A program made the translations under genes and the position numbers. Shown piece after piece: positions 37,401 through 64,000 of a stretch of 64,000 bases of DNA. Source of the DNA: Malacoraja senta (taxonomy: Eukaryota). Location of the stretch: assembly GCA_038087875.1 (NCBI GenBank), contig CM075992.1, positions 1,800,001 to 1,864,000 on the forward strand, in the 5' to 3' direction. The notes beneath the pieces were generated by a model. That model worked only from the letters and a program-made list of their open reading frames with translations. It was not told the origin of the DNA and made no database searches. The number at the start of each line of letters is the position of its first letter. Position 1 is the first letter of the stretch.

Positions 37401-39563
37401 CATCACGATCTCAAGTTTCTAGCTTGAAATAAGAGACCACTCAGGAGTACAAAGGATGGGTAAGGTCTAAAGGTAATAAAGACATGGATGAAGGTTTCAG
37501 TAGGGGATAAGCTAAGACAGAGCAGAGTAGGGCAGTGTTATGTTTTATTCCTCTGAAATCTAAATTATTTAAGTGGCTCTCTTCCTACACTTTAGCGATT
37601 TCAAACACATGAAGCAACAAATAAAATGTCTGCAGAAAATATTGCACTGGATTTAAATATTAACTCCTTAAAAGCATTAAGACACTTTACAGACAGCATT
37701 CTAAACAAATGCGCTGACAGCTTCCAACACATCCTCAAGTTGAGCCATATCTTCAGCTGACTCACACAGAGTTAATATTTCAATTACATTTTTATCAATG
37801 GCTCCATATTTGAGTTCCCTCCCCATCCTTGTTTGCATTGTTTAATTGGTCATATCCAGAGCACTATAGCAATCAAAAACCTCTCAATTGTCCACATCTA
37901 ATAAAAGAGAAAATTAACCAAAGCATCAGCTCCTGGTTATTATCTGGTGACCAAATGAACAAGTTTAAAGGCAAGGGGGAACTGGACTGGGGCCATGCCT
38001 CATCCTTCCACGATAAACAGTGCTACTCCTTTTCACGCCTGAATCTACAAATGTAGCTCTGTCACCTATGTCTACATATTCTGCTGTGCTGCTGTAAATA
38101 AGAATTTCATTGTTCTATCTGGGACATATGGCAATAAAACACTCTTGACTCTTATATAAAGTGTGGAGAAGAGATTAGTCCCAGTAGAACAGCATACTAC
38201 AAGAAACTGTACCTTTAGGACAGGACAAAGATAACAGAAACAATTCCATTTAACACTTACAAGCAGACTTGTTAAATATATGATGCAACCAGGAAAATCC
38301 ATTCCTTATGATTACCAGGTATTCAAAAATATCTAAGAAAATGTGAAGGAACAAGATTGAGCAAGTGCAGACAAGCACTTTTGGAGGAACTTTTTCTTTG
38401 GATCTCAGGCTCCATTTCATGTTGGTGCAGTCACCTTGAATCAGGGAAGCAAGAAGCAAAAAAAACATCCATCCTAAATGAAAATGCTTCAATAAAGCAA
38501 ACCCATAGTCTGGGGCTCAGATAACAGATCCACGGATTCCAATATCTCTGTGCAACAAAAGGACAATCGCGTACTCTCAAGATACCAACCACATAGCCAC
38601 AAATAGATTTGAGCTCTCTGCTTATTTAATTTCTTTGCAATAAAACATTGCTTTATTTATGCATCAACATCAATCAGTGACCAACTTTATTGAATCTGTG
38701 ACAGCTGGTAGAACCTTAAGTGTTTAAAGGATACTGGTCAAGGTACTCATTGGTATGTTATTATGCAGTTTGTCACACAGAGCGTTTAAAGGGTTCACTG
38801 TCCACAAATGTATCTTTAAATTTCTCTCATATACAAGACATGTTTTCTTTAAAAATAGGTACAGAGTGAAAATAGATTAGCACTTTTAAGCTGGAAGAAG
38901 ATTCAGAAAGTAATACAATGACCATCTTTTCCGTTTCACTCTGCATCCTGTCCAAAACTAAACCCTGGGTGAAATCAATCTATTCGCTCGCCAACAAAAC
39001 TGGGCAATCATGCCTGGAAACTATTAAATACTAACACAGGAACAAGACGGAACTTCTTATGAAGTAAATACCAATACTGAAAGAAGAGCTTATCGACCAC
39101 CAGTTGATATCCTGATTAAATCCTCACTGGGATGCGCTGTGTGTCTATCATTATTTAGCAACATCACACACATGCTATTTGCAAATGAGGGAATGTTCCT
39201 GTCAATATTCTATTTTTGTAGCGTCCAAATAAGAATATGAAAACACACGTTTCCAACACGATTTTCTACGGTTGAATAAACAGCTTGCAAAAGTATTACA
39301 TCTCAACAAGTCCCTCGTCTTGAGTGAGTCTGTGAACTGGGATTCACTGTAAATATAAAGGTCCTTATTCACCCACTGAGCCACCGGGTGATGAATGTGT
39401 GACCCCCCACACCACACCACCACAACAGCCTGGGGATTGGTGGGCCCCACATCCTGGGGAAGGGCGGCAGCCGCCGACCCCCCCGCTGGACATTACCGCT
39501 TTAAGGGGCACGCCACCGGTTTTTCTCTCGCTCACCGAACTCGGGATGGTCTCCGGTGCCCAT
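1363..39563 (-). CDS. slc44a2: Choline transporter-like protein 2, spliced CDS exons 1-13 (3' part lies beyond the left edge)
   Basis: 13 exons with AG/GT boundaries and consistent phases translate to [34 protein letters not shown]...[23 protein letters not shown]...[19 protein letters not shown]...IAYWAITAV; the [19 protein letters not shown] motif matches SLC44A2 rather than A4/A5 as I recall them. Confidence 0.93.
2005..2640 (-). mobile_element. GC-rich SINE-like element with internal repeats and a Rex-type tail
   Basis: Shares gctccacgatgttaaa units and a hairpin core with copies at 8190-8693, 17070-17230, 29640-29817, 47245-49467, 56270-56450; repeat units only at 59425-59655. Confidence 0.75.
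3164..3263 (-). CDS. slc44a2: slc44a2 exon 12 ([33 protein letters not shown])
   Basis: 100 nt, CAG acceptor, GTAAGT donor. Confidence 0.96.
3943..5650 (+). mobile_element. Penelope-like element RT fragment, split by a DNA transposon
   Basis: LRYIDD RT motif and [18 protein letters not shown]; the reading resumes at 5311 (HICAQDEVF...HLQRDPTT). Confidence 0.9.
4270..5310. mobile_element. Non-autonomous DNA transposon with 16-bp TIRs and a 7-bp TSD
   Basis: TAGGTATGTTACAAAA ... TTTTGTAACATTGCTA (14/16 match); TSD CACATCT at 4263-4269 and 5311-5317. Confidence 0.85.
5891..6022 (-). CDS. slc44a2: slc44a2 exon 11 (GIYHCYMEY...[19 protein letters not shown])
   Basis: 132 nt, TAG acceptor, GTAAGT donor. 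Confidence 0.96.
6191..6331 (-). mobile_element. ~140-bp Ingi/Vingi-like non-autonomous retroelement
   Basis: 5' HDV-like fold, 3' end CCATACGC+(AAG)n; near-identical copy at 40381-40520. Confidence 0.7.
6278..6331 (-). ncRNA. Minimal HDV/CPEB3-like self-cleaving ribozyme motif, copy 1
   Basis: GGGGUGA GA GAUUGCA ACC UUCACGU GGU CCACCCU GU AUUGA CGAA UGCAAUC, reading as P1/J1-2/P2/P3/L3/P3'/P1'/J1-4/mini-P4/J4-2/P2'. Confidence 0.75.
7006..7118 (-). CDS. slc44a2: slc44a2 exon 10 ([37 protein letters not shown])
   Basis: 113 nt, TAG acceptor, GTACGT donor. Confidence 0.95.
7336..7419 (-). CDS. slc44a2: slc44a2 exon 9 ([27 protein letters not shown])
   Basis: 84 nt, AAG acceptor, GTAAGT donor. 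Confidence 0.93.
8190..8693 (+). mobile_element. GC-rich SINE-like element (same family as 2005-2640)
   Basis: Repeated ttaacatcgtggagc units, hairpin core, AATAAA tail. Confidence 0.75.
8960..9405 (+). mobile_element. Rex1/Babar-like LINE 3' end
   Basis: [12 protein letters not shown] remnant, stem-loop, AATAAA and (ctaaa)n tail. Confidence 0.7.
9645..11102 (+). mobile_element. Tc1-family (IR/DR type) transposon with a defective DD34E transposase
   Basis: TA TSDs, ~215-bp TIRs starting CAGTGGCTTGCAAAAG with inner direct repeats; [22 protein letters not shown] motifs; N-terminus deleted, frameshifts. Confidence 0.95.
11344..11464 (-). CDS. slc44a2: slc44a2 exon 8 ([14 protein letters not shown]...LLEGAK)
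   Basis: 121 nt, CAG acceptor, weaker GTTCGT donor supported by phase fit with exon 9. Confidence 0.9.
11662..11722 (-). CDS. slc44a2: slc44a2 exon 7 ([20 protein letters not shown])
   Basis: 61 nt, CAG acceptor, GTAAGT donor, phase 0 to 1. Confidence 0.93.
11809..12302 (+). mobile_element. tRNA-derived V-SINE (HE1-like) with a nested Penelope-derived repeat
   Basis: A/B-box head, V core (gtttgtacgttctccccgtg), CR1-type tail; insertion at 12023-12187. Confidence 0.88.
12586..12611. repeat. (GT)n microsatellite
   Basis: Visible directly. Confidence 0.9.
12909..13037 (-). CDS. slc44a2: slc44a2 exon 6 ([10 protein letters not shown]...[11 protein letters not shown])
   Basis: 129 nt, CAG acceptor, GTGAGT donor. 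Confidence 0.95.
13634..13718 (-). CDS. slc44a2: slc44a2 exon 5 ([28 protein letters not shown])
   Basis: 85 nt, CAG acceptor, GTAAGG donor. Confidence 0.95.
14209..14293 (-). CDS. slc44a2: slc44a2 exon 4 ([28 protein letters not shown])
   Basis: 85 nt, TAG acceptor, GTGAGT donor. Confidence 0.95.
14690..15380 (+). mobile_element. Decayed CR1 fragment
   Basis: GSVLG and KFADD remnants, CR1-type tail. Confidence 0.75.
15725..15798 (-). CDS. slc44a2: slc44a2 exon 3 ([24 protein letters not shown])
   Basis: 74 nt, CAG acceptor, GTAAGT donor, first TM segment. Confidence 0.95.
16088..16392 (+). mobile_element. V-SINE (HE1-like), full length
   Basis: Same consensus; other copies at about 13265-13517, 21327-21615, 32277-32390, 33413-33543, 42755-43070 (+) and 26595-27268, 31370-31698 (-). 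Confidence 0.9.
16933..16981 (-). CDS. slc44a2: slc44a2 exon 2 ([17 protein letters not shown])
   Basis: 49 nt, polypyrimidine+TAG acceptor, AG|GTAGGA donor. Confidence 0.93.
17233..17448. mobile_element. PIF/Harbinger-type MITE
   Basis: TIR AGGGCCTGTCCCACTTTCAC; TAA/TAG flanks; interrupts a SINE tail. Confidence 0.85.
18250..18960 (+). mobile_element. Decayed Rex1/Babar-like LINE RT fragment
   Basis: Remnants [22 protein letters not shown]; boundaries approximate. Confidence 0.7.
21743..22843 (-). mobile_element. CR1 LINE 3' fragment (RT C-terminus and tail)
   Basis: [28 protein letters not shown] motifs; (caataga)n-like tail. Confidence 0.95.
22950..24148. mobile_element. Tc2/pogo-like MITE with a long internal inverted repeat
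   Basis: TA TSDs; TIR CCGTATTTCCCGGCAATGAA; arms at about 23228-23570 and 23597-23915. Confidence 0.85.
24373..24442. repeat. 70-bp spacerless palindrome
   Basis: 35-bp arms with 2 mismatches, centre GATCGATC. Confidence 0.95.
25798..26024. repeat. Fold-back inverted duplication with ~80-bp arms
   Basis: 25798-25878 is the reverse complement of 25944-26024 apart from a few mismatches. Confidence 0.9.
26635..27087 (+). mobile_element. Penelope-like element 3' end (GIY-YIG endonuclease and terminal repeat) inserted in a V-SINE
   Basis: Translates [19 protein letters not shown]...PVAQHFNS...RKLEEQNLI. Confidence 0.9.
27357..28640 (+). mobile_element. Decayed CR1 LINE
   Basis: [25 protein letters not shown] motifs, CR1 3' tail. 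Confidence 0.9.
30028..30373. mobile_element. PIF/Harbinger-type MITE
   Basis: TIR GGGCCTGTCCCACTGTAC; TTA TSDs. Confidence 0.85.
32769..33099. mobile_element. PIF/Harbinger-type MITE
   Basis: TIR TAGCCCTGTCCCA.. of about 47 bp; TTA TSDs. Confidence 0.88.
34207..34503 (-). mobile_element. V-SINE (HE1-like)
   Basis: Reverse-complement match to the 16088-16392 copy. Confidence 0.9.
34912..35195. repeat. Inverted and tandem Penelope-derived terminal repeats
   Basis: gctggagtaactcagcgggacaggcagcatctctggaga followed by its reverse complement, then a third copy; similar inverted pair at 30380-30590. Confidence 0.85.
36687..36714 (+). ncRNA. Minimal hammerhead ribozyme core in a Penelope-derived repeat
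   Basis: CUGAAGA-A-GGGUC UC GACCC-GAAAC-GUC; helix I is only about 2 bp. Confidence 0.6.
39536..39563 (-). CDS. slc44a2: slc44a2 exon 1 coding part (MGTGDHPEF+G)
   Basis: Kozak GCCGCCATGG in a CpG island; donor G|GTGAGC; phase 1 joins exon 2. Confidence 0.85.
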
Positions 39564-45251: not shown

Positions 45252-47596
45252 AGAAACCAGACAGCAAAGAGGCAGTAATGGTACTGAAATGGAAGCCGAG
45301 TAGAACTGACCATTGTAATACCAATCTTGACATAAAAAATATCTTGAGCAACAGAGAAATGGGAATTAGGATGAAGCAGTGTCACTTTTCCAAATATCTC
45401 TGCAATGTAGATAACTCACCTCACTTTACAATATCACTTTCGGGTTCGTCTAAAATAGAACGTAAATATGAATTAGAGTTAATGGGAATTAGCATCGAAA
45501 AACATTACAAACAAATAACATTTCATTCCTGGTTTAAAGGTCGTCGATACTAAATAAACAAGGTTTTTGAAAATAACAGACACAACGTACTTTTTCAACC
45601 AATTAATAATTTTCATTGAAAGTTAATGCCATTGCTGTCCAAAGTAGCAGAAGTTATGAGTTTTCCTTGTAGACAAATTTGAGTGCTAAATGTGGCAGCA
45701 ATAAATTCAATTACTTCTCTCTGTTGCTGGAAAGATAAATTCTGTCTCTGAGCTGAACAGACCAGGAATGGCCTAAGTTTGAACCTAAACACATTGAGTG
45801 AACAGTTTTTCATCACAGCAGGATCACGCTATTACTATAGTTTCACCTGTGCACACGATTAAGGACAATGAAACAAGAGTTTAGCTTGTAATCTATTTCA
45901 TAGTTCAAAAGACATGCACTAATATAACGCCCCCTTTAATAGCATCAGAATCAACTTGATATGTGGTAGCAATAAGTCCTGTCCAAACATGTAGTGGATA
46001 TACCTGGTATTTGAAACAAATCCTTTCACCTCATTTGCAACAGTTTCTCTTTCCATTGTGAAGGAAATGTCCTGCAGGCTAAATGTAGAAATGTCAATTA
46101 GGAATCTTCAATTAGGTCTTGTTCAAGATGTTGCAGGCTATCCACATGACTGCCACTGATATATTTAGGGCCAACAGCTGTATCTATGCATGTTTATAAA
46201 AAGGTTTGTAGGATTTCAGCCAATTTTGGAACTGCAGATTTGATGTTGTGATGTGTTCGTAATTTCAAAGAGCCAGGACCTTTCAGCACTTAACCCCTCA
46301 TTGTATGTTTAATGGTGTGAAGCTAGAAAATACTTGTAACTATTGAGGTCATAACTTTGTGGATTTAAATGTACAGCTTTTTATTCCAAACAAAGCATTA
46401 CTTTGCATGGGGATGAGTTTTGTTCCTGAAATGTTACACTTGACTGGTGTTTTATGTTTCATTGTTGGGACTAGTACAACATATGGAGATATCAAACTTT
46501 GTTTTTCCAAGTTACCTCTGCTAGCTTCTGTATGTTCAGTGAGAATTTTATGTTCTTCAGGGTATTGGAGACAAAGTTACTCCTTGGTATTCTGATTTGA
46601 TATTCAAGTAAGAGATAAATATCACATTACTTTGGAATGTGGAAGGATTTCATGAAACAGAATTCCAAAAAAACAAAAATCTATTTTGAGTGCCAGATTT
46701 ATAATCTCAAGGGAGGATATTTGTGATACAAGTGCTATGTTATCTCTAAAGATGAGTTTTGTGATCTTGCAGTGCAGCAATATGACAAGAGTAAAAATTA
46801 AAAGGATTGTTCTTCAAATGGCCTATGGCAGGGCTATTATTTTCCTTCCATGAGTGATTGATGGATGTAGAGTTTTCAGAGAATTCAGCATGTTGGTCAA
46901 TAGATTAAAGGAAGCTTAACAGGCAAATGACTTGGTTAATAAAGGTAAGGAGTCCATGGTTATAGGTGGGGGAGGGGGGGGGGAGACAGGCTAATGACTA
47001 CAATCTGTCAACATTATTTCTCAGTTTCCATTATGTGCATGGAATAACTTCTGGAAAGGATTAAGCTGAGACATGACCACCTGGTACCAAAGATCCACTG
47101 TTGCTTATAAATAATCATGGCTGCTAAGGGGTAAGATAAGGTGCAACATCAAGGCAAGATTTCTACTTTGTGATCAATGGCTTGATTTCAATATTGCAAT
47201 GGCCTTAAGAGGTCTGACATTTCTCAGAAGATAGGCCGCGGGCCCGGTGGACGACATCGTCGGGAGCTTGCAGGTCACAGGTGGGTGACCTGTTTTTCTG
47301 GAGCTCCCGCAACTACAGCTGCGTCCGCTGGACTGGAGGGCGGCAGCTTCGGCAGCTTCGGCCACCCCGGGCCGCGGAGTTTGAACCGGCCCGTCGCGGA
47401 GCACGGATTCTGCCGCGGGATTGACTTACCAACACCCGGCGGGGTCACAACATCAGAAGCCTGGATCGCCTCAGCGCAGAGGGAGAACAAAGTGGGAAGA
47501 GACAGCGACTTTAAGACTTTTGCCTCCATCACAGTGAGGAGGTGCCTGGTGAACTCACTGTGGTGGATGTTCATTTGTGTTTATTGTGTGTGTTTT

Positions 47597-49584: not shown

Positions 49585-49666
49585 ATTTTATTTATAACCC
49601 TTCTCGGTACAAAGAACCATGCTAGGATCAGTAAAATAGCAAAACCAACAAGAACACCTAAAATAA
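49585..49666 (-). CDS. Putative transmembrane exon (IILGVLVGFAILLILAWFFVPRRVINK)
   Basis: ttcttcctttccag acceptor, GTAAGT donor, hydrophobic stretch followed by basic residues. Confidence 0.7.
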
Positions 49667-52600
49667 CTGGAAAGGAAGAAAAAGGAGTTAGTGAAACAGA
49701 AATTATTGAGCTTTATCGGTCCTGTTACATCAACAGCAATGGGTAGATATATATTAAAATATTGCCCAACTATATTTTTTAAATACCTCTGTTGAAAAGA
49801 TATATGGTGAATGGACGGCATTTTTACAACTCTAAACGTTACACGTCATTATCCCTGTGTTGAGAAAGACCCACAATTTTGTCTAAGGTTACTATTTTGG
49901 ATACATGATCTATCATCTGGTTGTACAGATTATCTGTCCACTCATGGCAAAAAACAAAAGTGGTGAAAAAGCTAAGTGTGTAAATTACCCTCTAAGCTAT
50001 CCAGAGGCCTAGACTGATGATTCTAAGCCCCATCAAAATAGCTGGGAAATTTAGTTTCAGTTAATTAAATAAAAAGGCTAGTGTCAGGAAAGATAATCAT
50101 AAGGGACAGATGTTAAATGTGGACTTTGTCAGCAATACGTGTCCTGTATTAAATTATTAAAAGATACAAATGACACGAGGTATGTCATTCCATACCTCTC
50201 TTTGTGTTAGAGTAGCTCTTTTCCCATTAACAATAGGAGACTTGTATTCCTGTTGCCAGTTGTACACCCTCTTTAAATAGGAGGTAAATGCCAAACAACC
50301 AACAGTGTCCAGGTTTCATCAGCAGAGAGGGTTATTGGCTGCAACCTTCCCTCCGTTGATGAACTGTACACTGCAAGGGCCAGGAAGCGAGCGGGCAAGA
50401 TCATCTCTGATCCCTCTCACCCTGGCCACAAACTCTTTGAATCACTTCCTTCTGGAAGGATTGTCACTGCCACAGCCAGACATAAAAACAGTTTTTATCC
50501 ACGAGTAGTTGCTTACTCAACAGCCAAAAATCTGTAGCCTCGCTTTGATTTGGTATTTTGTTGGTTCACATGCTTGATCAATGGTGTTTTATCATTAATG
50601 TTTTATTATTATTAATGTTTAGTGTTTTCCGAGTCATTCGTAACTGTCACTGTATGTCATGTTGTTACTTGTGGGCGGAGCACTAAGGCAAATTCCTTGT
50701 ATGTGAATATTTAGAAACATAGAAACATTGAAAATAAGTGCAGGATGCAGCACCGCCATTCATTGTGATCATGGCTGATCATCCCCTATCAATAACCCGT
50801 GCCTGCCTTCTCCCCATATCCCTTGACTCCACTAGCACCTAGAGCTCTATCTAACTCTCTCTTAAATCCATCCGGTGACTTGGCCTCCACTGCCCTCTGT
50901 GGCAGGGAATTCCATAAATTCACAACTCTCTGGGTGAAAAAGTTTTTTCTCACCTCAGTCTTAAATGACCTCCACTTTATTCTAAGACTGTGGCCCCTGG
51001 TTCTGGACTCGCCCCACATTGGGAACATTTTCCCTGCATTTTTCCTGCATCTAGCTTGTCCAGTCCTTTTATAATTTTATATGTTTCTATAAGATCCCCC
51101 CTCATCCTTGTAAACTCCAGTGAATACAAGCCTAGTCTTTTCAATCTTTCCTCATATGACAGTCCCGCCATCCCAGGGATCAATCTCTTGGCCAATAAAC
51201 TTACTTACTTACTTACTTGTTGAAGAAAATAGGAGCAGAGGCACTGTGCAATTCTGATCTCCACTTCGTGTCATTCATTAACAACCCAGCATGAATACAA
51301 TATCTTTTTGGCTAATCAGGAAAGATGCCTGTTACACTACAACATTAAAACATAAGAAATTGAATAAAGACCAGACCATGCGGCCCCTTGTGCATGCTCA
51401 GCCATGGTTAATCATTTACCCTAGCGGGATTTTCCTGTGCTAACCTCATATTATGATTACCATATTAATAAAAAGTCTTTCAATTTCGACCTTGAACTAC
51501 AGCAACTGAGCCTCCCAGCTCCTTTAGACTGAGAATTTCTAAGATTTACCACCCTCTGGGTGAAGGAATTTTCTGTCTTGAATCAATGACCCCTTGATTG
51601 TGAGCCCTGGTTCTAAACACACCAACCTGTGGAAATATTAACCCTGCATCTATGCTGTCAAGCGTGTCAGTCTGTTGTATGCGTCAATGACAGGACACTA
51701 CCCTTAGATCATGCAACCAGACCTGTGCTCAATATATTCCAGGCATAACCACAGCTCTGTACATTTGGAGCAGGACACCTCAACTCTTGTACTCAAATCA
51801 TCCTGAAGTAAACAGCAACATACCATTTGTCTTCCTACACTCACATTTGTCTCTCCTACTCACATGCTCCCAACAATTCATGAGCAAGAACATCCAATTC
51901 CATCTGTATCCCATCTTTCAATTACTTGTGCAAAAAGTACTCTGATAACTAGTTTTTCTCTCAAAAAGTGGATAGCATCACATTTTGCTCACATTATATT
52001 CTAACTGCTATGTCCTTACTTATATAATCAGTCGACATCTCTATGAAACCTCTCTGTACCCTCCTCACAGCCCACACTGCCACCTGGCTTTGTGTTATCA
52101 GCAAACTTGTTTATATTAAATTTTTTCCCCCGTAGGGGACAAAATATAATATCAATAAGCTTGCTGATTAATACATTGGATGAGGGGACAAAATGTAATA
52201 TAACTAAGTTACATGGGGCTCCAGCAGCAATCTCTATGGCATCACCCTAGTCATTGCCTTCCAAACTCAAAAATCATTAGCTTATTCCTACCATATATTT
52301 TTGTTCATTACTCAATCCCCAATCCATTGCAGTGTATTGGCCCCAATAATGTGCGCTCTCAGACTGATTAATAATTGATTAATTTTATTGTTATTTTCTG
52401 GATCTAGGAAGTGCGAACAATGCCAACTTGTATTGCTGGTTTCCTAATTGCCCTTGGGAAGGTGGTGGCAAGCTGCTTTCTTGAATTGGCTTTAACTATT
52501 CCATTACTTGTAACCTCAAACATTTAACACCCAGTTTGCCCTTATCCATGTTGCCAATTGCAGTCTGAAAAACTCTTACCAGTCCTATTTTGTCAGGACA

Positions 52601-55600
52601 CTATAACCCGCTTTAACAAAAGGTTTGAACAATCTTCCCAATTACTCATGTTAGGCTAACTGGTGTTATAGTTCCCCATTTTCTCTCTCCCCCTCCTTTC
52701 TTTAAATTGGAGTAACATTTGCTACCATCCAACAGTGAGAACCGTTCTGCAGTTCTGCAATTTTGTAAGATGACAGCTGCTGCATTCACCATCTCCATAT
52801 CTGCCTCCTTTAAAACGCTAGGTTTGCAAATAGAAACATAGAAACATAGAAATTAGGTGCAGGAGTAGGCCGTTCGGCCCTTCGAGCCTGCACCGCCATT
52901 CAATATGATCATGGCTGATCATCCAACTCAGTATCCCGTGCCTGCCTTCTCTCCATACCCTCTGATCCCTTTAGCCACAAGGGCCACATCTAACTCCCTC
53001 TTAAATATAGCCAATGAACTGGCCTCGACTACCCTCTGTGGCAGAGAGTTCTAGAGATTCACCACTCTGTGTGAAAAAAGTTCTTCTCACCTCGGTTTTA
53101 AAGGATTTCCCCCTTATCCTTAAGCTGTGAAATGACCAGATCCTGCAGATTTATTACTTTTCAGTCCCATTTATTTAATCTCTATTAATTGTACACCGTT
53201 ATATTTGAACTCTCCTTTCACTCTAGACTTGCTGTTGTCTTCTATTTCTGGGAGGATTTTTGTCCCTTCTCAAATAGGTTATCAAAAAATATTTGTTTAA
53301 TATTTCTGTCATTATTTCCCCAGTGTAATTTCTCCTGTCTCTTGTAAAGACTCGCATTAATTTTAACTATTCTTTTGGTTTTAAGAGTAAACAAGATCTT
53401 ACTATCAGCTTTTGTGTTTCTCCCTCCCCCAACCACATATTCGATTTCCTTGTTCCTATCAATGTCCTGGTCATCCTTCAATTAATCTGTAATTTTCCCA
53501 ATTCCCAATTCTTTGGCAACAAAAGAAAGTTATATTTTTCTTGATAGCCATGGATGGACAGCTTTTTCTATTTGAATTGCCTTAAAGAGATTGTCTTAAA
53601 ATATTGCTTTAAAAGACGCGAGTTCCTTAAATTTACCAATATAATGCTTTTACCAGTTAATTAGAGCTGTTTAAAATGACAGCTGTAATGGTGGAGGGCA
53701 GAGTTAAGATCAGTCTAATTTTTCAAAATAAGTAAAGTTTGATGAAGTAATTGTCAGTGGTGCTCTAAATAAACAGAATAAGCATTAGTACCAAAATGTG
53801 GGGCACACATGTGTACTGCCCGAGTGAAGTCTGCTACACGATTTTACCGGATTGTATGCAAAACAAAGCATTTCATTGTACCTTGGTACATGTGACAATA
53901 AAGTATCATTGAATCATTGGAGTTATATGAGGTATTCATAATTTCCAGCCAATTCACCACTTACTGAGAACGATTATTCTGAAGCGTCTTTGCCCAACTA
54001 CCCAATAATCATCTTGATCGTCAGTTGACTTTTGTTCTTTGTTATGGTTTTGTTCATGTTCATGACCAGTATCTTGGTGCTTATTAGCTTGCTTTACCTT
54101 TTCATCTTCCAAGTCTGGAAAACAAGGAACAATTACTTTGAGCAGCAATTGAAGTTTTAATATCCAAACAGATATATAAAAGAGTAGGTGGTCAAAAATT
54201 TGAAAATTAAAAATTCTGGACTTACAAACAGGTCAGGATGTATTTGAGCATGTTTTTACTAAATTTTAATCATGCTTTAATACCGAATAAAGAATAATTA
54301 TTTTAAATAATCCTGTCCCATTCCTTAAGTCACATGGGAATCACGATGAGTTGGTAAATTGGATACAAAATTGGCTTGATCTGGCTATACAGAACTTGAA
54401 GTCTATGATCAGTGGTGGTCCTCAAGAAGCAGTGCTGCGACCGGTTGTTTCTATTGTATATAAATGACAGATGAAAATATAGATTATCTAATTAGTAAGT
54501 CTGCAGGCAACAACAAAAAATGGCAGAATTGTAAAATAGTTGTCAAAGAATACAGCAGGATATGGACCAATTGGAAATTTAGACAGACAAATGGCAGATG
54601 GAATTCAATCCAGCCAAGTGTTAGGTGGTGTATTTTGGGAGGTAGGTACACAGTAAAGGTAGGACTCCCAAAAGCATTGATGTACAAAGCGATCTTTGGA
54701 TTCAAGGCCATAGCTCCTTGAAAGTCACAACACAAGTGGATAGGGTGGTAAAGGAGGAATACATTATGCTTGACTTCATTGGTTGGACACTGTGTATAAA
54801 AATTAGAATGTCACAATGAGCTTTTCAAATTAACTCCTCAAAATATTCTCTTAAATTTTTGACAATTTCTTAAAACAGTTTATTTTTCTTTTTTATCCAC
54901 TTTTTATGTTCTCTTGAAAAGTCACTAACAAGTGACAAAATACTGTTCCATGGGCACCTGTAGCTTTGTAGTATTTTATACAAACACTCTTCCCTTATGT
55001 GCAAACCATATTGAGTCTTAGATGGACATTTGTTCAATGGACATCATAATTAATCAAACTACTTTCTGCTCCTTATGCATCTTTCACTAGATAACGAGCA
55101 AGACTGATGAAAAGGCTCATTTAACAATAATACTGATATTCCTCAACTCAATACAGGCAAAGAATTGACACTGGTCTTATCAGTGCCAGTGAGAGCAAAA
55201 ACTGCATCCATTCAGCAACCTTATCACTGAAGGACCAGCAACCATTCTCATGTCTGCCCAACTTCCTATTGTCCCTTTATTCACTTACATAAAGATTTGG
55301 CTTCAAATTACATGCCAATTGATTAAGAGTGTAGGAAGTGCTGGTTTAAAATAAAGATAGACACAAAAACCTGGAATAACTCAGCGGGAGAGGCAACATT
55401 TCTGGAGAGAAGTAATGGGTGACGTTTCGGGTCAAGACCCTTCTTCAGATTGATTAATATGGATCGACATAAAGATTGTCTGAATTGATTTAACTAACTG
55501 AAGATACCGCCTGGTCTGATTTTCATCAGAAGTTTTACGGCTGAAGAAAGGTCACTGACCTGAAACATAAACTTTATGTATTCTCTTTCTTTCTCCTTCT

Positions 55601-58600
55601 GTAAATGCAAGCTGATCTATTAATCATTTTTAACAATTTGTTTCTATTTAATAGTAACTCTTTTCTCTTGTAAAGCTGTAATGTTAAAACCCAGCTACTA
55701 CTGGTTCTACCTTTAGCTTGATCCTCCCATTTTAAGATTTGATGCCATGGTGATATTTTTACATCATATCCACAAAATTATGAGGGTAAGTCTCAGAAAA
55801 GTTCACAAACAATGCCCTCGTGATATATGGTCAGCAGTGCCATTTTTAGATGAGATCCTGCTGAGGTATAATGCTATCTACTGTGCTTGACTAAAACGTT
55901 TGAAATATAAAAGCTACGTACAGAGTGTTTTTGTTGTTTACAAGCACATGGATATTTTCCATGGTGCAAACATTTTCTCAGATATTGCTACATGCTGCCA
56001 TTAAAACAATGTATTAAATGATCTATCCTCCACATAGGATTTCTTCTTACAAAATGGTGAACAGCAAGTTGCTCAGCTACCATCAATTCTAACAATCTTA
56101 ACTCAAACCAAATAATGAAACACTTCATAGTATTCCATGCTGTCTAAAAAAATGTCACTACGTTAAGACTAAAGATCCTCCATCGAATGTGAGAAGCACC
56201 TACATGTTTTCAATAAAATAACATGTATTCAAAGTCCCACTTCAGAAATCTGTGCACAAACATGTCGTCCAAGTCCAAGTTACATTTATTGTCACATGCA
56301 CCAATTGGTGCAGTGAGATTTGAGTTACCATACAGCCATACGAATAAAAAGAACACAATACACGATAGGCTTTAACATGAACATCCCCACACAGCGGAAT
56401 CAACGTGTCCCACTGTGAGGGAAGGCAATAAAGTTCAGTCATCTTCCTCTTCGCGGGAACAGTTCTGGGGAGTAATATAGTACTTTATTTTTGAGAGGTC
56501 AGAAAGACTACAAAGTCTAATGTCTTAGTATTCTGGGACTACCTGGCAATTACCACAATGCCGATCGTGGACCTTACGCAGGAAATGTCTGATGCTTCGC
56601 CAACAGTCATAATAGTGAATTAAAGTTGGAAATAAATGCAGATGATATGAATCTGAAAGAAACATAAAAAGTGCTGCAAAATTCAGCATTTGTGAAAAAG
56701 AGAACACAGATTTCAATTAATGGATATTATTAAAGCAGAGATTGATAGGTTCTCAATTAGTGTCAAAGGTTAAGATGAGAAGGCAGGAGAATGGGATTGA
56801 GAGAGAAAAGTAGATTAGCCATGATCAAATGCGGAGGAGACTCGGTGGGCTAAATGGTCTAATTCTGTTCCTATGTCTTATGACCATTTCAGGTATGCAA
56901 CTCTGTTAGAACTGAGTTGATTACTGGAAGTAAAAGTATTTTCGGACATCAGAAGGATACATAAAGCAGCAGAGGTGCAATTTTTTTTCTTAGCTAGTTT
57001 GCTGCTGCATGAGAGACTTTTCCACTACTTTATCTTTATCAACCCGTTGTAATTTGGAAATCAATAGTGAAGATCTCAAAGAAATCACAAAGAAACCTCT
57101 ATTCAATCAATCTGAAGAACCAAGCCTGAAGAGTCCCAATCAATAGCAGCCACAGAATGTCCCAAATAACTGGCCTGACCCGAAAACCACCTTAATTAAC
57201 ACAGTGAAGAACCCCTCTTGCTCTCCATGAGACCACTGAGAATGGTTTGGTAACAACGACCAAGAGATCCGGAAGCTAATAAACTAATAATGCAAGGCAT
57301 CCTTATACTAGAAGCACCATCATACATGCAAGACACTTTTGGACTGAAAGCACCCTCAATGGAGGATAAAACAGACTTGAAGGTCAAGGTCCATACAAAA
57401 CATGGCTTAGAGGACAGATAATATGTGCAGGAAATTTGATAGCTGTAACCATAACATAGATCCTTCAGTACTATAAGACCATCTGTGAATCCAATGTCCA
57501 AGTAGAAAAGAATGAAGCCAATAGGAATGTCAATAGCTGAAGAAAAGTGAGAGGATCAGCAACTGCTGGATAGAGCACTTCCAAGATCCCATGTTTCTGG
57601 TTATATCTATATGTATTGTAGCAATACACCAGAAAGTGGCACCAAAACTTACTGTATAGGTTGGGTGGAGCTAAATCTGAGCAAGGACTTTCCTCATATA
57701 GTTTAACATTGTATTTATCTATAGCACGATCATTAAATCTCAAGTGATTTTGACATCAACATCCAAAAGGTCGCTCGTGTTAACCACTGTATTTAATGGT
57801 TCATTTTCATATTTCACATGCTGTTTCCATCTCTATATCATTTACAGCAAATGTTTATTTTTACACCTACAACAATTCCTCTATTGAAGGTCAAATGTAA
57901 GAGAGAAAAAAACTATAAATGGCAGGAAACATTTATGTACAGAGGAATCACTGGTTCCAATTCATAGCACCCTGAAAGTAGCAACATAAGTAAATAGGAT
58001 GGTAAAAATGCCATACAGCATACTTGCCTTCATCGCTCATGGGGTGAGGGGTTGAGTATAAAAGTCAGAAAGTGATGTTGAGTATAAAAGTCAGGAAGTG
58101 ATGTTACAGAATTATAAAGCTTTGGTTCAGCTGCATTTGGAGTACTGAGTCCTGTTCTGATTGTCACATTACACCCTGCTCTGACATATCTCACTACTTC
58201 TCTGTATCCAAACAACTTTATTTCAGAGGTTTTGATCTTGTGTACCCTGGTCAAAAATATTCTCCAGCTTCTCCTCTCAGGCCCCATTCGATGTTTTGCT
58301 GATTCTGGACCTTACTGTTTTGTCCCACTCCCCCAAAATCATCCATGAATCTTTCTGACAAAATATATTACCCTTCAATCCCAAAACCATTTCATTTTGG
58401 TTTTCTCTTCAAAACTATTTTTAAAAGCTATCCTTAATTCCTATTATTTCCCATTTGGTGTCAAATCCCTATCTTGTAAAGTGCTAATCTACTTGAGGAG
58501 TATTGTATAATTTATTTCTAAAATATATTGTAACATTAACAAACCTTCAAGGCCACCTAAATGCAAAATACGCACATCACGCATATGCTTGTGTTCATCA

Positions 58601-61600
58601 ATTCTTATAAACAGATGTGAAAACTTATGCTATTTATTTGTTTGCTGTTTTAATCTGGCTGGTTAAGAAACTGTACTAAACGGTTGCACTTCCGCTACAG
58701 GAAAACCACAGGGAAAGGAATAAGCCCTAAGTATCCCTTTTCTACAATTACTCTCCACACCTGAAGACATTTCTTCAAATGATTCATAATGTGGCACTGT
58801 CTTGATATATTTCTTTCTGCTGTCACTATCCAAGTTCCATACAACGTCTTCTTTTGCATCTGAAATAAAATTATTTGAAAGCTGTACCATCAAGATTCGT
58901 ACAGGTATGAAAGTTTCCTCTCACATACTGTGCTCAATGACAATATTTAGGGATTATTGTACTTCTCACTTTTTTAAATCTCAATGTGCATCTACTCACT
59001 TTCCATCACAGTCTGCAATGAGTTTGTTAGTTATCAGCATATCTTCTATGGCAAGGCAAATTGTTTGCAAAATGAAAACCTGTGAATTGCACTTCCACTC
59101 AAAGATGACACGTGCTATTTTGCTGAGATGTTGAATATACTAGATAATTCTACTGTCCTAACTAGGGTAAAAAGGCAGCAGGAAAAAGATACAAAATAGA
59201 AATAAAATCTGAAAATAACTCAGATGTTATTGACAGGTATAAAATCAAAAATTAAAATACATAGAAAAATGTTGGATGATTTTGTAGGATAACTGAATGC
59301 AAACAGTGATAATCTTAGTACAGCATTGAAAGCCCAACAATCTGATATTGTGATTACTGGATACAATTTCACTTTCCTGATTAAATCTCTAGGTAGCAAG
59401 TCAGAACTTGAAACATGACAAATTTCCACCTCCTGCGGCTTGAGCTCCCGAAGTCGGTCCCTAACTAGGGACCGCGAGCTCCACGATGTTAAGTCCGCAG
59501 GCTCCCGCGGTTGGAGCTCATGAGGTCGATTCCCAGCAAGAGGCCGCCAGCTCCACGATGTTAAGCCACAGTGCGGACGGAGATATGATACGAAATAAAT
59601 TTGCATCTCCGTCGAGGAAAGAGATTAAAAAAAAATTCCCCCACAACCAACTCCAAACCAAAGATTATAGAGCAGAGCAAGATGCGCCACTCTGCGAAAA
59701 AAGCGTAGTATGACATGGGTGAGTGTTGACGCCATTTTACCGGACTGCAATTTACAATAATAATAGTAATATTTACAATAATATTAACTACATATGTGAA
59801 GTGATAGATGCTATATACAACACTGTTCCCTACAACACGGATTACACCAAAGATGATAGAGCGGAGCAATCTTTGGAACGGATTATACCAAAGACAATAG
59901 AGCGGATCAATCTTTGGAACGGATTACACCAAAGATAATAGAGCGGATCAATCTTTGGAACGGATTACACCAAAGATACGAGAGGAACATTGCCCGCTGA
60001 CTCGGGAGCGCCGACGCTTGAGGCTCTCCCGCCAGACAGAGAGCCTGGTGCCGGCCGCCTTCATCTGGTATCGGGGGGGACCGAGAATCAGTCCTGGATC
60101 AACTCAGGAGTGGAGGAAATGTCCTCTTCCCCCAAAGATACTATAGGAGCCTCCAGTATCTTTGCTCTTCCCTGCGACCTGATGTAAGCGCAGATTGTAT
60201 AACTGTGGAGTCGGTCCCCGCTACCAAAGATGTCGCGTTTTGCATAAAAAAATTAAACTCCAAATATCTGAAGTTCAAATGGAAGCATCTTTAAATTAAA
60301 AAACAGAAACTAAAGTTTAAAACACACCTTTTATTTCTCTAACTCTTGTACATCTTATAACAATGTTGAAGAATTGCCACTCACAAATTGCAAGATTTTG
60401 CCTCTCATTTCCTTCAATTACCTGACTTCCACTATACCACAAACAGGAGTGGAAGTCAGGATTGAGCTAATCACACAAGCTCAAAGTTTTGGAATGTCAA
60501 ACTTCTAGAGTTATGATTTTAGCGATGGAAATGAGATTAAAAAATGATTTTAGTGATGGAAATGAGATTCAGGATTGGAAATTAAAATAATAAAATAAAA
60601 GAGTCAATATCAGATTGCCACTGATTCTCCACAGAATCACCGGCTAGCTAGCAACACAATCCAGTCCAATGTTTTCGGTATCAATTATCTATTCACATTT
60701 TCTTTGTCTAGTTCACTAGTTTTAGTTTTCAACAAGCAGTGTGAATATGGAATTTTCTGACATGTTTTATGACTCTTCCACGTAAGATAGGTATCTGGCT
60801 AAAGTATGAATATGAATAATATCCACAATTTGCATAAAAGGAATTTCAATTTTTTTTAACCAAAACTAGAATTGTAATTTAATTAATTGGCTACAACTAT
60901 AACTTAAAAGTACAATTTTATATCCTAAGATATTCCAAGGCATACACTATTTTGAAGTTTAGTGCCGATAGTTCTGCCATTACAGGTGTTTCCACAACGC
61001 TATCAGATATAATGTGATTAATGAATTGGGAAACACTATTTGTATTACATAGGTTATAATGGTTATAACCTATGTACATTGGTTATAATGTGATTTCTAT
61101 CGGGAACAACCTAAAAGTCATTTCGGATATTGACAAGCAGAAAAAAGCTGCCTTGGGGAAAAAAAGTCTAAAGAAAAAGAACCTTTTCCATGTAACAACC
61201 CCAAAGTAATCAGTCACCCTTGTCTCTGAAGAAAACAGGCTGCTAGTTTCATGGGTGGCTACTGAAATTGACAAGCAATTGGTTCTATTTACACTTATGC
61301 AATAATAAGCCTTTAATACTTTTAGCTTGTAGTACCTAAAATAAATTTATAGCTATTAAAAAAAAATTGAAAATCCTGTGTGAAAAATACTTAAGTCAGT
61401 CTGGGAATGCTTGGGCTTCATTCTCAAACTGATACACTTTTATTATGAGCCCTTAGATTCCTGGTTTTTGTGAATATTGGTCTGTAGGATCCACTGCTAT
61501 TAATAAACTTTATTCAGGAATGTCACGCTGCTCACCCTCCAGCTCAGTGCATTAATGCACCACCTGACATGGGACTTAGAATTCGGACATGTTTCGGATT

Positions 61601-63995
61601 TGATAACTATGCTGTGTTACATAACTGCACTGGTCTATTGGTGAGCAGGTATTACCTTAATGGAACCCAATGGAAATGAAAATCATAGTTCCCGCACTGG
61701 GTGGCTGATCTCCCATCCAGTTTTATGCTTGGATGGCAAACTAAAAACTCCACCAAGTGCTTCCAAACTCAGATGCCTGTCCATGTGATAAAGTTGGTCA
61801 ATCCTTTTTAAAGTTTGTTAAAAGGACACATCTATTTTCTACCCTTATTTTCTAATCGTGAAAATAATTACGATTAGGATTTAGTCTGTAGAGGCATTGT
61901 ACCCATTCTAATTTCTATTTCTTTGAACAGTTTTCTCACAACACAGGTCTGCAATTTTTGTACAAACTTACCCAAATCTTCAACTTTCTATCAATATTTT
62001 TAGTCACTTTATTTAAATGCTAGAAAATATTTATTTTCAAACCTTGATATATTTGAGAAGGGACTCCAATGTCAGGTTGAGGAACTAAAATATCTTTGAC
62101 TCCATCTCTGATAGTTTGCTGTTCGCTGGGATAAACTGCTTCTAAAAATAAATATTTTGAAACTCACATCAGAACTTTTCTGCAGTTTATTCATTTTTTC
62201 TTTACTTTGCTTTCCAGCTTTATGCATTAAAGTCTTGCATTCATTTATTTGGTAATATTTCTCCTTAGAAAATCTCATTGACCAAGATCTCTCCTCAGAA
62301 ATGCATCTAACATTTTGCAACATTAAAGGTACTCAGAAAATATCAATTATTGTATTGTAGAATTATGCCTCATCTCATCAAACCACTTAATTATATTATA
62401 TTTTGAAGTATATTTGAACATAATTTTGATTCCCACTTAAGCAGTCATCCTTGATTTGGTGCAATGGTAACTCTAAAGTTCTTAAGGCACGAGTCTTAGT
62501 CAATTGCTGAGATGACATGTATATAAACTTAACGTTGCCTGATGCAAATCTTATGAAATGGTTGTTGACTTGTCTTTGATTCAATAATGATTACAGTTAA
62601 CAAGAAGAGTGTCAATCATGTCCCAAGTTAAGAATCTGCATAAATTAACAATTCAAGATGCATTTAAAAAAACATTGCGCACTCATAGTAGTAACTTTAC
62701 AAACCACTTTAATGGAGCGATGGAATTAAAAGCATCTCATAGAATATTAGTGATACTGAGCCACATGGTGGTCTAAGGATAAATGAACACAAATTTGAAC
62801 AAGGGTAGATTTTATAGATGTGTGTTGAAGGAAGAAAGAAGGTAGAGAAGCAGAAAACTTTAGGGAAGTAATTCCATAGTTTAAGATGTCGGCGGTGGCT
62901 AGTGGTGGAGTGATTACACCTGGGGTTGGTTTATTCTACAACTATAGGACTGCTACAAACTGATTGCAAATGTTCTCCTGTATTAAAAAATACTGTGCAA
63001 TCTGAGTGGATTCTTTTGACTACACAAAGATCTCTTGCAAGCAGAAGATGGCAGTTTACAACCATCATCTCAATAATGGCAGGCTAATAAATGCTCACAT
63101 GTCAGCAACACCTGAATTCCAAGAATGAAGGGGGGAAAAAATCAACTATTTCTGATAAGTTCCCTATACTAAAGACTTTCTGGATAAAAGAAACTCTCCT
63201 AAATTCTTTATTGGTTTTATAACTATCTTTATCATATGATCCAAGTTTTGGTTTCCTTTACAACTGAAAGCATAAGGGTGAAGAATAGATTTACCAGAAT
63301 GGTGCCACAGATATAGAACTTCAGTTACAAGGAAAACATACATGTCTGCAATTCTTCACAGATCTGTGATTGAAAGCTGTGAATCATTGAAAACTTAAAG
63401 AGTTTTATTGAGTAATCAGAAACTGTCATTTATTAAAATGAAGATTTATAGTAACTAGCTAAAGAAGCAGAGTGCTGTAATAATCTGGAATAGACTGTGT
63501 GAAAGGTTAGAGCAGTAGATTTCATCAATGCTTTCGAAAGGGACATGGAAAGATACTGTGAGGAAAGTACCATGGGTTAAAGTTAAGAAAAGTAGTGATT
63601 AAGCTCCAAGAGAACTAAATGAACGTCCTCTCTCTACTATATGACAATATATGATCTTATATTACTGACTGTTTTTGATCTCTCCTATAAGTTGAAATTA
63701 CTCCTTATCTACTCTATCAAAACCTATAATTATAGAGACCTCCATTATAACACCCTTCATCCTCTTTCAGGTTCTATTAGAAAATCAAATCATCTTTGTA
63801 ACTTAGAGATTGAGGATGTTATTTATCCATGCACATACAATCACAAAAGCCTCGTTACTGTACTGTCCATTACAGAATCTTGGATTTTTTCCACACCTTG
63901 ATATACATGCGGAGACAGTCTTGATGGAGGTACAGGTAAATAATATTCTTTACGTTTCTTATTTTGTTCTTCATCTAATATGCCTCCTTGATTAC
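49585..63995 (-). CDS. Putative unrecognised single-pass membrane protein gene (partial; tandem 33-aa exons followed by a TM exon)
   Basis: Chain of open, phase-compatible exons: 63995-63897, 62141-62043, 58859-58761, (57718-57653), 56652-56554, 54114-53965, 49666-49585. Confidence 0.6.
50712..51187 (-). mobile_element. CR1 3' fragment inserted into a Rex1/Babar-like LINE tail (50380-51218)
   Basis: RGDLIETYKI motif; the host tail resumes with ttggccaataaacttactt. Confidence 0.85.
51350..53129 (-). mobile_element. Old and younger CR1 fragments
   Basis: Degenerate CR1 RT-like sequence plus a young 3' end at 52831-53129. Confidence 0.7.
53965..54114 (-). CDS. Putative 150-nt exon (DLEDEKVKQANKHQD...DDQDDYWVVGQRRFRIIVL)
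   Basis: ccttgttttccag acceptor, GTAAGT donor, phase 1-1, hydrophilic coding-like composition. Confidence 0.65.
55421..55448 (-). ncRNA. Minimal hammerhead ribozyme core in a Penelope-derived repeat
   Basis: CUGAAGA-A-GGGUC UU GACCC-GAAAC-GUC on the minus strand. Confidence 0.55.
56554..56652 (-). CDS. Putative 99-nt exon (SYHLHLFPTLIHYYDCWRSIRHFLRKVHDRHC)
   Basis: gtttctttcag acceptor, G|GTAATT donor, phase 1-1. Confidence 0.55.
57653..57718 (-). CDS. Possible 66-nt exon (DKYNVKLYEESPCSDLAPPNLY)
   Basis: TAG acceptor with a weak pyrimidine tract, GTAAGT donor, phase 1-1. Confidence 0.35.
58761..58859 (-). CDS. Putative 99-nt repeat exon (DAKEDVVWNLDSDSRKKYIKTVPHYESFEEMSS)
   Basis: ttttatttcag acceptor, G|GTGTGG donor, phase 1-1. 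Confidence 0.6.
59837..59977. repeat. 41-bp tandem repeat (about 3.4 units) with an internal CCAAAGAT/ATCTTTGG inverted repeat
   Basis: Units start at 59837, 59878, 59919 and 59960. Confidence 0.9.
62043..62141 (-). CDS. Putative 99-nt repeat exon (EAVYPSEQQTIRDGVKDILVPQPDIGVPSQIYQ)
   Basis: tttatttttag acceptor, G|GTTTGA donor, phase 1-1. Confidence 0.55.
63897..63995 (-). CDS. Putative 99-nt repeat exon (NQGGILDEEQNKKRKEYYLPVPPSRLSPHVYQ)
   Basis: TAG acceptor at the window edge, G|GTGTGG donor, phase 1-1, aligns without gaps to the exons at 62141 and 58859. Confidence 0.55.
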
Positions 63996-64000
63996 CTAGA

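What the first reader, a model, noticed from the sequence alone, without database searches (positions are those of the whole stretch)
49585..63995. Cryptic membrane-protein gene with tandem 99-nt (33-aa) symmetric exons upstream of slc44a2
Seen: four exons of exactly 99 nt, all phase 1-1 and open. Three align without gaps: RKEYYLPVPPSRLSPHVYQ versus VKDILVPQPDIGVPSQIYQ, and RKEYYLPVP versus RKKYIKTVP; two share the donor GTGTGG. They are followed by a 150-nt hydrophilic exon and an 82-nt exon that completes a TM helix (IIVL|IILGVLVGFAILLILAWFFV-PRR). I do not recognise the protein. Inference: a fast-evolving, possibly lineage-restricted type I membrane protein expanded by exon duplication; its start lies beyond the right edge and I could not identify the last exon.
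Basis: partly seen in the sequence, partly recalled or inferred. Interest (0 to 1): 0.7.

Follow-up and report, generated by a model that had tools for sequence, protein, structure and literature searches.

The report
Shark-lineage membrane protein with swappable exons
This is a skate gene, already predicted but apparently unstudied in sharks, rays and a chimaera, for a predicted unfolded cell-surface protein whose outer part is likely assembled from optional short exons; three of the four 99-base exons match those relatives and the fourth does not.

Summary
The gene is not cryptic. It is the orthologue of RefSeq 'uncharacterized' LOC129714397 of little skate (86-97% per exon), with one copy in each of 13 cartilaginous fishes, chimaera included. 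No bony-vertebrate relative, Pfam family or paper was found. Relatives supply a signal peptide and a conserved polybasic (furin-type) site beyond the right edge, and two alternative last exons (45449, 43765). Three 99-nt exons (A, B, C) are conserved cassettes that database isoforms carry in six combinations. A and B are clear duplicates (z 8.7), C only weakly, and a chimaera model has its own tandem copy of A. 'Exactly 99 nt' is a skate coincidence: the family range is 96-108 nt. The fourth 99-nt exon (56652-56554) matches 0 of 36 family proteins, though its splice sites are too good to dismiss. The ectodomain is predicted disordered, Cys-free and not mucin-like. Most likely it is a convertase-trimmed, membrane-tethered display whose tip is varied by splicing. 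No RNA was seen here; tissue and partner are unknown.

The parts
63897..63995 (-). Cassette exon A, 99 nt, phase 1-1; module ending P-x-PP-x-R..HVY[QE]. Only 5 nt of its acceptor lie in the window; signal-peptide exon and two further exons lie beyond the right edge
   Evidence: 30 of 32 residues identical to L. erinacea P0001; hit by 33 of 36 family proteins at E<0.1; no credible hit of the relatives' N-terminal parts in the window (best E 0.085)
62043..62141 (-). Cassette exon B, 99 nt, phase 1-1; duplicate of A (ends [HQ]IYQ)
   Evidence: 31 of 32 identical to P0001; 26 of 36 family proteins; A-B z 8.7; cleanly skipped in isoform pairs
58761..58859 (-). Cassette exon C, 99 nt, phase 1-1; HYES-x-E module with an S-x-E motif; skipped in both little-skate models
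   Evidence: 17 of 32 identical to Narcine P0009; 12 of 36 at E<0.1, 20 of 36 by motif; HYES and S-x-E in 8 of 8 rows
56554..56652 (-). Candidate exon D, 99 nt, phase 1-1, strong acceptor; no homologue; pseudo-exon or skate-only recruit (unresolved)
   Evidence: 0 of 36 family proteins; unrelated to A/B/C; but the only well-scoring spare candidate among 31 lengths tested, and exactly 99 nt
53965..54114 (-). Exon E, 150 nt, phase 1-1: predicted helix DLEDE..QA.KH, His/Glu-rich linker, YW-x-x-G-x-RRFR juxtamembrane motif, start of TM helix
   Evidence: 43 of 49 identical to P0001; 32 of 36 family proteins; model helices 187-199 and 232-265
49585..49666 (-). Exon F, 82 nt, phase 1-2: rest of TM helix (GxxxG here) and basic stop-transfer
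   Evidence: 24 of 26 identical to P0001; donor AAT|GTAAGT; 30 of 36 family proteins
45420..45449 (-). Exon G1, 30 nt: short basic tail (RTRK) and stop at 45436-45434; the family-typical ending
   Evidence: gives the C-terminus of L. erinacea isoform X2, P0001
43134..43765 (-). Exon G2: alternative 23-residue tail with stop at 43695-43693 when G1 is skipped; then 3' UTR to a candidate AATAAA at 43134
   Evidence: 87.5% to the C-terminus of L. erinacea isoform X1, P0002, E 1e-6; AATAAA positions
39536..39563 (-). Context: first coding exon of the slc44a2-like neighbour, in a CpG island about 3.5 kb downstream of the candidate poly(A) signal
   Evidence: later exons resemble Xenopus slc44a2 Q6IP59 and catshark XM_038784629 as printed in a supplement row of PMC8569936 (compared by eye)

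Best explanation
These exons are the 3' part of a single-copy cartilaginous-fish gene (orthologue of little-skate LOC129714397) for a predicted disordered, single-pass type I membrane protein that likely acts as a membrane-tethered display whose outer modules are likely chosen by alternative splicing. Steps: (1) a signal peptide, seen in relatives, takes the chain into the secretory pathway (inferred). (2) A proprotein convertase likely cuts a conserved polybasic site about 60 residues in, releasing an N-terminal piece (motif shown, cleavage inferred). (3) The new tip is made of one to three frame-preserving modules A, B, C of about 33 residues, carrying conserved His/Tyr/Pro motifs and, in C, an S-x-E motif. 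These are likely short linear binding motifs, possibly tuned by tyrosine sulfation or Fam20C phosphorylation (isoform combinations are shown in database models; the modifications are inferred). (4) A His/Glu-rich linker and a YW..RRFR belt lead into a TM helix with a conserved small-xxx-small face. (5) The tail is short and basic, with no recognisable signalling motif by eye, so the protein would work as a ligand, adhesion or spacer molecule rather than as a signalling receptor (inferred). A and B arose by exon duplication before sharks and rays split; the chimaera lineage has its own tandem A. Exon D is probably not part of the conserved protein.
For: Exon E alone finds L. erinacea LOC129714397 at 86%, E 3e-18. 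There are 36 family proteins from 13 species, and a 12-species tree follows the expected groups with 6 of 9 inner branches starred. Isoform pairs differ by clean 32-38-residue deletions equal to single exons; combinations ABC, AB, AC, BC, A and C occur, plus AA in the chimaera. A-B homology: z 8.7 local, z 5.8 anchored, hhalign E 8e-4. R-x-x-R in 11 of 12 species, canonical R-x-[KR]-R in 9 of 12; Cys 0 in 12 of 12 ectodomains; S+T 5-11% (one row's ectodomain was cut short by the pattern). AlphaFold2 on a 13-row alignment: pTM 0.18, 193 of 278 residues under pLDDT 50, helices only at 3-15, 187-199 and 232-265. [AG]xxx[GSC] in 10 of 10 elasmobranch TM rows. Exons A, B, C, E and F lie in single-copy-depth DNA in two DNA-like runs, with no listed change inside them (16 substitution rows and 1 indel row not shown).
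Against: No spliced read was seen here: splicing rests on RefSeq models, whose RNA support I did not see, and minor isoforms may be splicing noise. A 13-row alignment is shallow, so low pLDDT may reflect depth rather than disorder. Cleavage, sulfation, phosphorylation, surface location, tissue and partner are untested. Narcine has only a tribasic RKR site and its models lack A and B; the chimaera lacks the YW motif, the C module and the same small-xxx-small register, so these are not universal. C's kinship with A/B is weak (p 0.02-0.03 anchored, none by local alignment). D's splice sites are better than chance would usually give.
Confidence: 0.55

Rival explanations
1. It is a membrane-tethered precursor inside secretory granules or the acrosome. 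The working product would be the released N-terminal peptide or shed ectodomain, and the His/Glu-rich linker would sense pH or metal, as in granule-lumen proteins.
For: The N-terminal E[LF]ARLPE motif and the polybasic site are kept from sharks to the chimaera. His is 6-13% in elasmobranch ectodomains. The nearest Atlas clusters by features include a C2orf92-like cluster (0.89) and equatorin (0.87); their testis/acrosome link is recalled.
Against: The Atlas scores are under 0.9 with fewer than 170 shared features, so they are leads only. No sorting motif is evident in the tail by eye. The spliced variation lies on the membrane-retained side of the cut.
Confidence: 0.25
2. Exon D is a real, skate-only fourth cassette, newly recruited from intron sequence into a tolerant disordered ectodomain.
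For: Of 31 lengths (60-150 nt) scanned between exons A and F, D is the only open phase 1-1 candidate at moderate or strict thresholds, and one of two at the loose one. It falls at exactly 99 nt (chance about 0.03-0.06 by my crude splice scores; candidates sharing an end with B, C or E were dropped). Relatives' models also carry foreign cassettes: a 25-residue insert in sawshark isoforms matches reverse-transcriptase-like ORFs of this window at 68%.
Against: 0 of 36 family proteins match it, including two other skates. It would add two Cys to a Cys-free ectodomain. One contig of run X2 lacks a base inside D (depth 3.2, may be an error).
Confidence: 0.2
3. It is a highly diverged orthologue of a bony-vertebrate disordered type I protein (C2orf92-, equatorin-, TMEM154- or PIANP-like) that sequence searches cannot bridge.
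For: These are the nearest Atlas clusters (0.83-0.89). Even the chimaera orthologue scores only E 5e-4 from skate, so a bony-fish orthologue could be invisible.
Against: No Afaf, TMEM154 or AJAP1_PANP_C match in any of 13 members at E<=1. The profile search that includes the chimaera gave 23 of 23 chondrichthyan hits among 5854 candidates. The chimaera query drops those clusters to 0.76-0.78.
Confidence: 0.15
4. It is a glycophorin-like red-cell surface protein: short symmetric exons, a dimerising TM face and fast change under parasite pressure.
For: GxxxG in both skates and small-xxx-small in 10 of 10 elasmobranch rows; short phase 1-1 cassettes; faster divergence than slc44a2.
Against: S+T is only 5-11% and there are 0-1 sequons, so it has no mucin-type coat. 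Glycophorin_A Pfam is hit by 1 of 13 members at E 0.23, far under the cut-off. The tail is short and basic.
Confidence: 0.08

Closest known systems
Uncharacterized LOC129714397, Leucoraja erinacea (XP_055519951.1 = P0002, XP_055519952.1 = P0001)
   Same: Exons A 30/32, B 31/32, E 43/49 and F 24/26 identical; both last exons G1 and G2 are present in the window.
   Different: Both skate models skip C, which is intact here and conserved in Narcine and sharks; neither has D. No function assigned.
Chondrichthyan family: LOC144610593 (Rhinoraja), Narcine, LOC121271401 (Carcharodon), LOC144668998 (Cetorhinus), LOC122552459 (Chiloscyllium), LOC132835837 (Hemiscyllium), LOC119957214 (Scyliorhinus), Pristiophorus, Heptranchias, LOC103190215 (Callorhinchus)
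   Same: Signal peptide, polybasic site, cassette modules, His-rich linker, TM helix and short basic tail.
   Different: Cassette lengths vary (96-108 nt). Narcine models lack A and B. The chimaera has A or AA, no C and no YW motif.
Furin-processed or cassette-spliced disordered type I proteins (PSGL-1, PIANP, CD45 A/B/C, CD44v, glycophorins); properties recalled, not from a call
   Same: Working principle only: unfolded ectodomain, convertase-trimmed N-terminus or optional symmetric exons, single TM helix.
   Different: No detectable sequence homology; not Ser/Thr-rich; no folded domain; no signalling tail.
C2orf92-like, equatorin (PF15339), TMEM154 (PF15102) and PIANP (PF15298) clusters of the ESM Atlas
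   Same: Similar length, topology and low-complexity make-up (feature scores 0.83-0.89).
   Different: Scores are under the lead threshold, and those Pfam families do not match any of 13 members.

Membership tests
LOC129714397 family of cartilaginous fishes (unnamed) | Sequence orthology over consecutive exons in gene order | tested here: met
LOC129714397 family of cartilaginous fishes (unnamed) | YW-x-x-G-x-[RK]RFR juxtamembrane motif, TM helix and short basic tail | tested here: met
LOC129714397 family of cartilaginous fishes (unnamed) | Signal peptide and polybasic site in this organism's own copy | not testable with these tools
   They lie beyond the right edge and no genome is held; present in relatives
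LOC129714397 family of cartilaginous fishes (unnamed) | Position next to slc44a2 in other species | tested here: inconclusive
   Catshark transcript numbers put slc44a2 and the likely orthologue among genes of the same human-19p13-like set (rests on a recalled accession offset; adjacency not shown)
Glycophorin A family | Ser/Thr-rich O-glycosylated ectodomain | tested here: not met
   S+T 5-11% in 12 species
Glycophorin A family | PF01102 above cut-off | tested here: not met
   1 of 13 members, E 0.23
Glycophorin A family | GxxxG-type TM face | tested here: inconclusive
   Motif present in skates, small-xxx-small in 10 of 10 elasmobranch rows, not in register in the chimaera; dimer formation untested
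Equatorin / TMEM154 / PIANP-AJAP1 | PF15339, PF15102 or PF15298 match | tested here: not met
   0 of 13 members at E<=1; 0 of 7 queries
Folded 33-residue repeat proteins (ankyrin/TPR type) | Helical repeat fold and Pfam repeat match | tested here: not met
   No Pfam hit for any 99-nt exon; no helices over the modules in the model; no PDB sequence match at E<=1
SCPP (secretory calcium-binding phosphoproteins) | Phase-0 introns and no TM helix (recalled) | tested here: not met
   Introns are phase 1 and a TM helix is present; only the S-x-E motif of C is shared

The most novel reading that the evidence does not exclude
A gene family found only in cartilaginous fishes, older than the shark-chimaera split, builds a combinatorial cell-surface recognition tip from short, unfolded, duplicated exon modules exposed by furin cleavage. 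It still gains modules: a tandem A in the chimaera, transposon-derived cassettes in some models, and possibly a newborn exon D in this skate. It would be a folded-domain-free, splicing-diversified ligand (for example on gametes or blood cells) that bony vertebrates lack.
Probability: 0.25. Interest if true: 0.6.

Novelty: new member of a known kind. Interest (0 to 1): 0.33.

Why it matters
As it stands this is a correctly spotted gene that annotation pipelines already predict, so the surprise is modest. Its value is that the family is old, apparently confined to sharks, rays and chimaeras, unnamed and without a paper in the searches made, and that the window shows how it varies: symmetric cassette exons, born by duplication and shuffled by splicing, downstream of a conserved convertase-type site. 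If the cassettes are binding modules, it is a simple system for studying exon birth in disordered proteins and a candidate lineage-specific recognition molecule. The report also supplies exon C, which the little-skate models omit, and both last exons.

Tried and rejected
RNA evidence: no RNA holder listed. The two listed runs gave flat, intron-spanning contigs typical of DNA and no exon-exon joint among the rows shown. No whole genome is held, so the upstream exons, synteny and dN/dS could not be done. Homodimer job on the TM region: no answer (the alignment was not used). Pfam on 7 queries and 13 members: only sub-threshold hydrophobic-helix matches such as Orf78. PDB by sequence: nothing for the family profile, and nothing useful for two slc44a2 exons. 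No fold search was run because the model is low-confidence; the Atlas structure rows all have TM by query under 0.3. Rfam on 49001-64000: 0. Tandem Repeats Finder shows no array over the exons. P0028 (1159-aa repeat, no matched stretch) and P0027 (44-aa unnamed fragment of exon B with intron flanks) were left out of the 36-protein counts. Exons 2 and 3 of relatives as further copies of the module: exon 2 versus A is suggestive (z 3.1, 3 of 300 shuffles; 6 aligned columns), exon 3 is not. Literature: 0 papers for six LOC ids; searches gave nothing on this gene (listings and abstract starts only). The catshark id LOC119957214 was absent from the readable supplements of PMC13188829, PMC12768270, PMC8569936 (file 1 cut when stored), PMC11806052 and PMC11589584 (one scanned file not searched). 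The tissue-atlas supplement of PMC11979771, the most likely place for expression data, was too large to read; two main-text passages were seen and were irrelevant. Earlier scan notes: none on this locus or family.
Full report
Observation. All six segments lie on the minus strand with AG and GT ends and open frames: A 63995-63897, B 62141-62043, C 58859-58761 and D 56652-56554 (99 nt, phase 1-1), E 54114-53965 (150 nt, phase 1-1) and F 49666-49585 (82 nt, phase 1-2). A and C share the donor GTGTGG. On the same strand further down lie exons of an slc44a2-like gene, starting at ATG 39563 in a CpG island. By eye they resemble Xenopus slc44a2 Q6IP59 and catshark XM_038784629 as printed in one supplement row of PMC8569936; paralogue identity was not tested by a tree.

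What it is. Exon E alone retrieved Leucoraja erinacea 'uncharacterized protein LOC129714397' (86%, E 3e-18). Its isoforms contain A (30 of 32 identical), B (31 of 32), E (43 of 49) and F (24 of 26). They also identify two last exons in the window: G1 at 45449-45420, giving a short basic tail with its stop at 45436, and G2 from 43765, giving a 23-residue tail with its stop at 43695 and an AATAAA at 43134. Further searches brought 36 family proteins from 13 species: two skates, an electric ray, nine sharks and the chimaera Callorhinchus milii. All are named 'uncharacterized' or 'hypothetical'. A 12-species tree groups batoids, carpet sharks, lamnids and catsharks as expected, with 6 of 9 inner branches starred and a long chimaera branch, which fits single-copy orthologues. 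No bony vertebrate appeared. The profile search gave 23 of 23 chondrichthyan hits among 5854 candidates (word-seeded, lengths 114-522). phmmer over 1.84 billion representatives gave 5 hits: two elasmobranchs, the chimaera at E 5e-4, and two unnamed rows that I left out of the counts. Because the chimaera is already near the limit of detection, absence in bony fish is likely but not proven.

The exons one by one. tblastn at E<0.1 hits A with 33 of 36 proteins, B 26, C 12 (20 by motif), E 32, F 30 and D 0. Isoform pairs differ by clean deletions of 32-38 residues, and the models hold ABC, AB, AC, BC, A alone and C alone; one chimaera model has two A-like modules in tandem and another skips the second. 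B is 32-33 codons, C 32-34, and A 33 in skates but 36 in S. torazame, so three equal 99-nt exons is a skate coincidence within a 96-108-nt range. A and B are duplicates: mean local score z 8.7 with 0 of 300 column shuffles reaching it, hhalign E 8e-4, and all 13 A rows and 10 B rows end in [HQRY]-x-Y-[EQKP]. C is related to them only weakly: p 0.02-0.03 when anchored at the 3' end, 40 of 99 bases in register with A in the window (p 0.006, one of six pairs), and nothing by local alignment. D resembles none of them. Against dismissing D: in 14 kb between A and F it is the only spare open phase 1-1 candidate with good sites among 31 lengths (one of two at a loose threshold), and it is exactly 99 nt (crude recalled splice weights; candidates sharing an end with B, C or E dropped). 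Relatives' models also take up foreign cassettes, such as a 25-residue sawshark insert that matches retrotransposon-like ORFs of this window at 68%. For dismissing it: it has no homologue even in two other skates, it brings two Cys into a Cys-free ectodomain, and one shallow contig lacks a base in it. I put D at about 0.2.

Anatomy of the protein. Relatives start with a hydrophobic leader on its own exon, followed by two more exons that lie beyond the window's edge. The second ends in a polybasic run: R-x-x-R in 11 of 12 species and R-x-[KR]-R in 9 of 12. That this is a furin-type site follows from the recalled consensus. The ectodomains have no Cys in 12 of 12 species, S+T 5-11%, 0-1 N-glycan sequons and His up to 13%. 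AlphaFold2 gives pTM 0.18, with helices only at the leader, the start of exon E and the TM segment; the alignment has only 13 rows, so disorder is predicted, not shown. Pfam and PDB give nothing above threshold. The Atlas's nearest clusters are other disordered type I proteins (C2orf92-like, PIANP, equatorin, TMEM154), all under 0.9 and so leads only. The best-kept stretches are the ends of the modules, HYES-x-E in 8 of 8 C rows, the start of E, YW-x-x-G-x-[RK]RFR in 11 of 11 elasmobranch rows, and [AG]xxx[GSC] in 10 of 10 elasmobranch TM rows. The tail is about a dozen mostly basic residues. The gene diverges faster than its neighbour: 63 of 139 residues are identical to catshark, against 50 of 67 for three slc44a2 exons (hand count).

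How it most likely works. Shown: the gene, its exon layout, the conservation of A, B, C, E and F, and the A-B duplication. Shown in database models only: the splice combinations. Inferred: secretion, convertase cleavage, exposure of a tip of one to three modules, modification of their Tyr and Ser motifs, and a role as ligand, adhesion or spacer molecule, since the tail offers no signalling motif that I recognise. Confidence is about 0.98 for the identity, 0.9 for the topology and 0.55 for this whole account. Rivals are a granule or acrosomal precursor whose released peptide is the product (0.25), a hidden orthologue of a bony-vertebrate gene (0.15) and a glycophorin-like red-cell protein (0.08). 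It works like convertase-trimmed or cassette-spliced disordered surface proteins (PSGL-1, PIANP, CD45, glycophorin; properties recalled) but fails the membership tests that could be run for those with Pfam families.

Limits. No RNA from this organism was available and no genome is held, so expression, the upstream exons, synteny and dN/dS remain open. Catshark transcript numbers hint that the orthologue shares a chromosome with slc44a2, but this rests on a recalled accession offset and does not show adjacency. No paper on the gene was found in eight library searches (listings only) or in five papers' readable supplements. The unread supplement of PMC11979771 and closed bioRxiv supplements may hold its tissue profile.

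Verdict. It is already predicted across cartilaginous fishes and apparently unstudied. Novelty: new member of a known kind. Interest 0.33; up to 0.6 if the cassettes prove to be splicing-diversified binding modules.

Noticed in passing
P0017, P0004, P0011, P0013, P0015 (Pristiophorus isoforms), residues 20-44; window 22661-22587 (-): A 25-residue cassette after the signal peptide in sawshark models matches a reverse-transcriptase-like ORF of this window at 68%: likely a LINE-derived exon or an annotation artefact.
   Followed up: partly
P0036 (Narcine isoform X2): It carries an insert of about 80 residues in place of A and B; its first part resembles a retrotransposon Gag start (recalled, not tested).
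   Followed up: no
P0037 versus P0029 (Callorhinchus milii): Two tandem A-like modules in one model, one in the other: an independent exon duplication with skipping.
   Followed up: partly
window 45449-45420 (-): The stop-bearing exon G1 has its own GTGAGT donor 14 nt after the stop, so it may splice on to G2 and still escape nonsense-mediated decay; skipping it switches the tail.
   Followed up: partly
window 56578 and 56543 (-): Candidate exon D has two further possible donors (giving 75 and 110 nt) behind the same strong acceptor.
   Followed up: no
P0019, P0020, P0022, P0003: Models in basking shark, white shark and Rhinoraja skip or lack the TM exon, which would give secreted or differently anchored forms.
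   Followed up: no
window 39900-39536 (-): CpG-island promoter of the slc44a2-like gene with a CAG run and a GA-rich run in the 5' leader; the first intron is about 22.5 kb.
   Followed up: no
window 13037-12909 (-): An slc44a2 exon has a short insertion relative to Xenopus that the catshark sequence shares (seen by eye).
   Followed up: no
window 9952-10881 (+): Tc1/mariner-like transposase fragments in an slc44a2 intron (recognised from recall).
   Followed up: no
window 49355-47898 (-): Two long ORFs (306 and 179 aa) of a LINE-type reverse-transcriptase C-terminal region in the F-G1 intron (recognised from recall).
   Followed up: no
window 59837-59978: 41-bp tandem repeat, 3.5 copies, 94% matches, in the B-C intron.
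   Followed up: no
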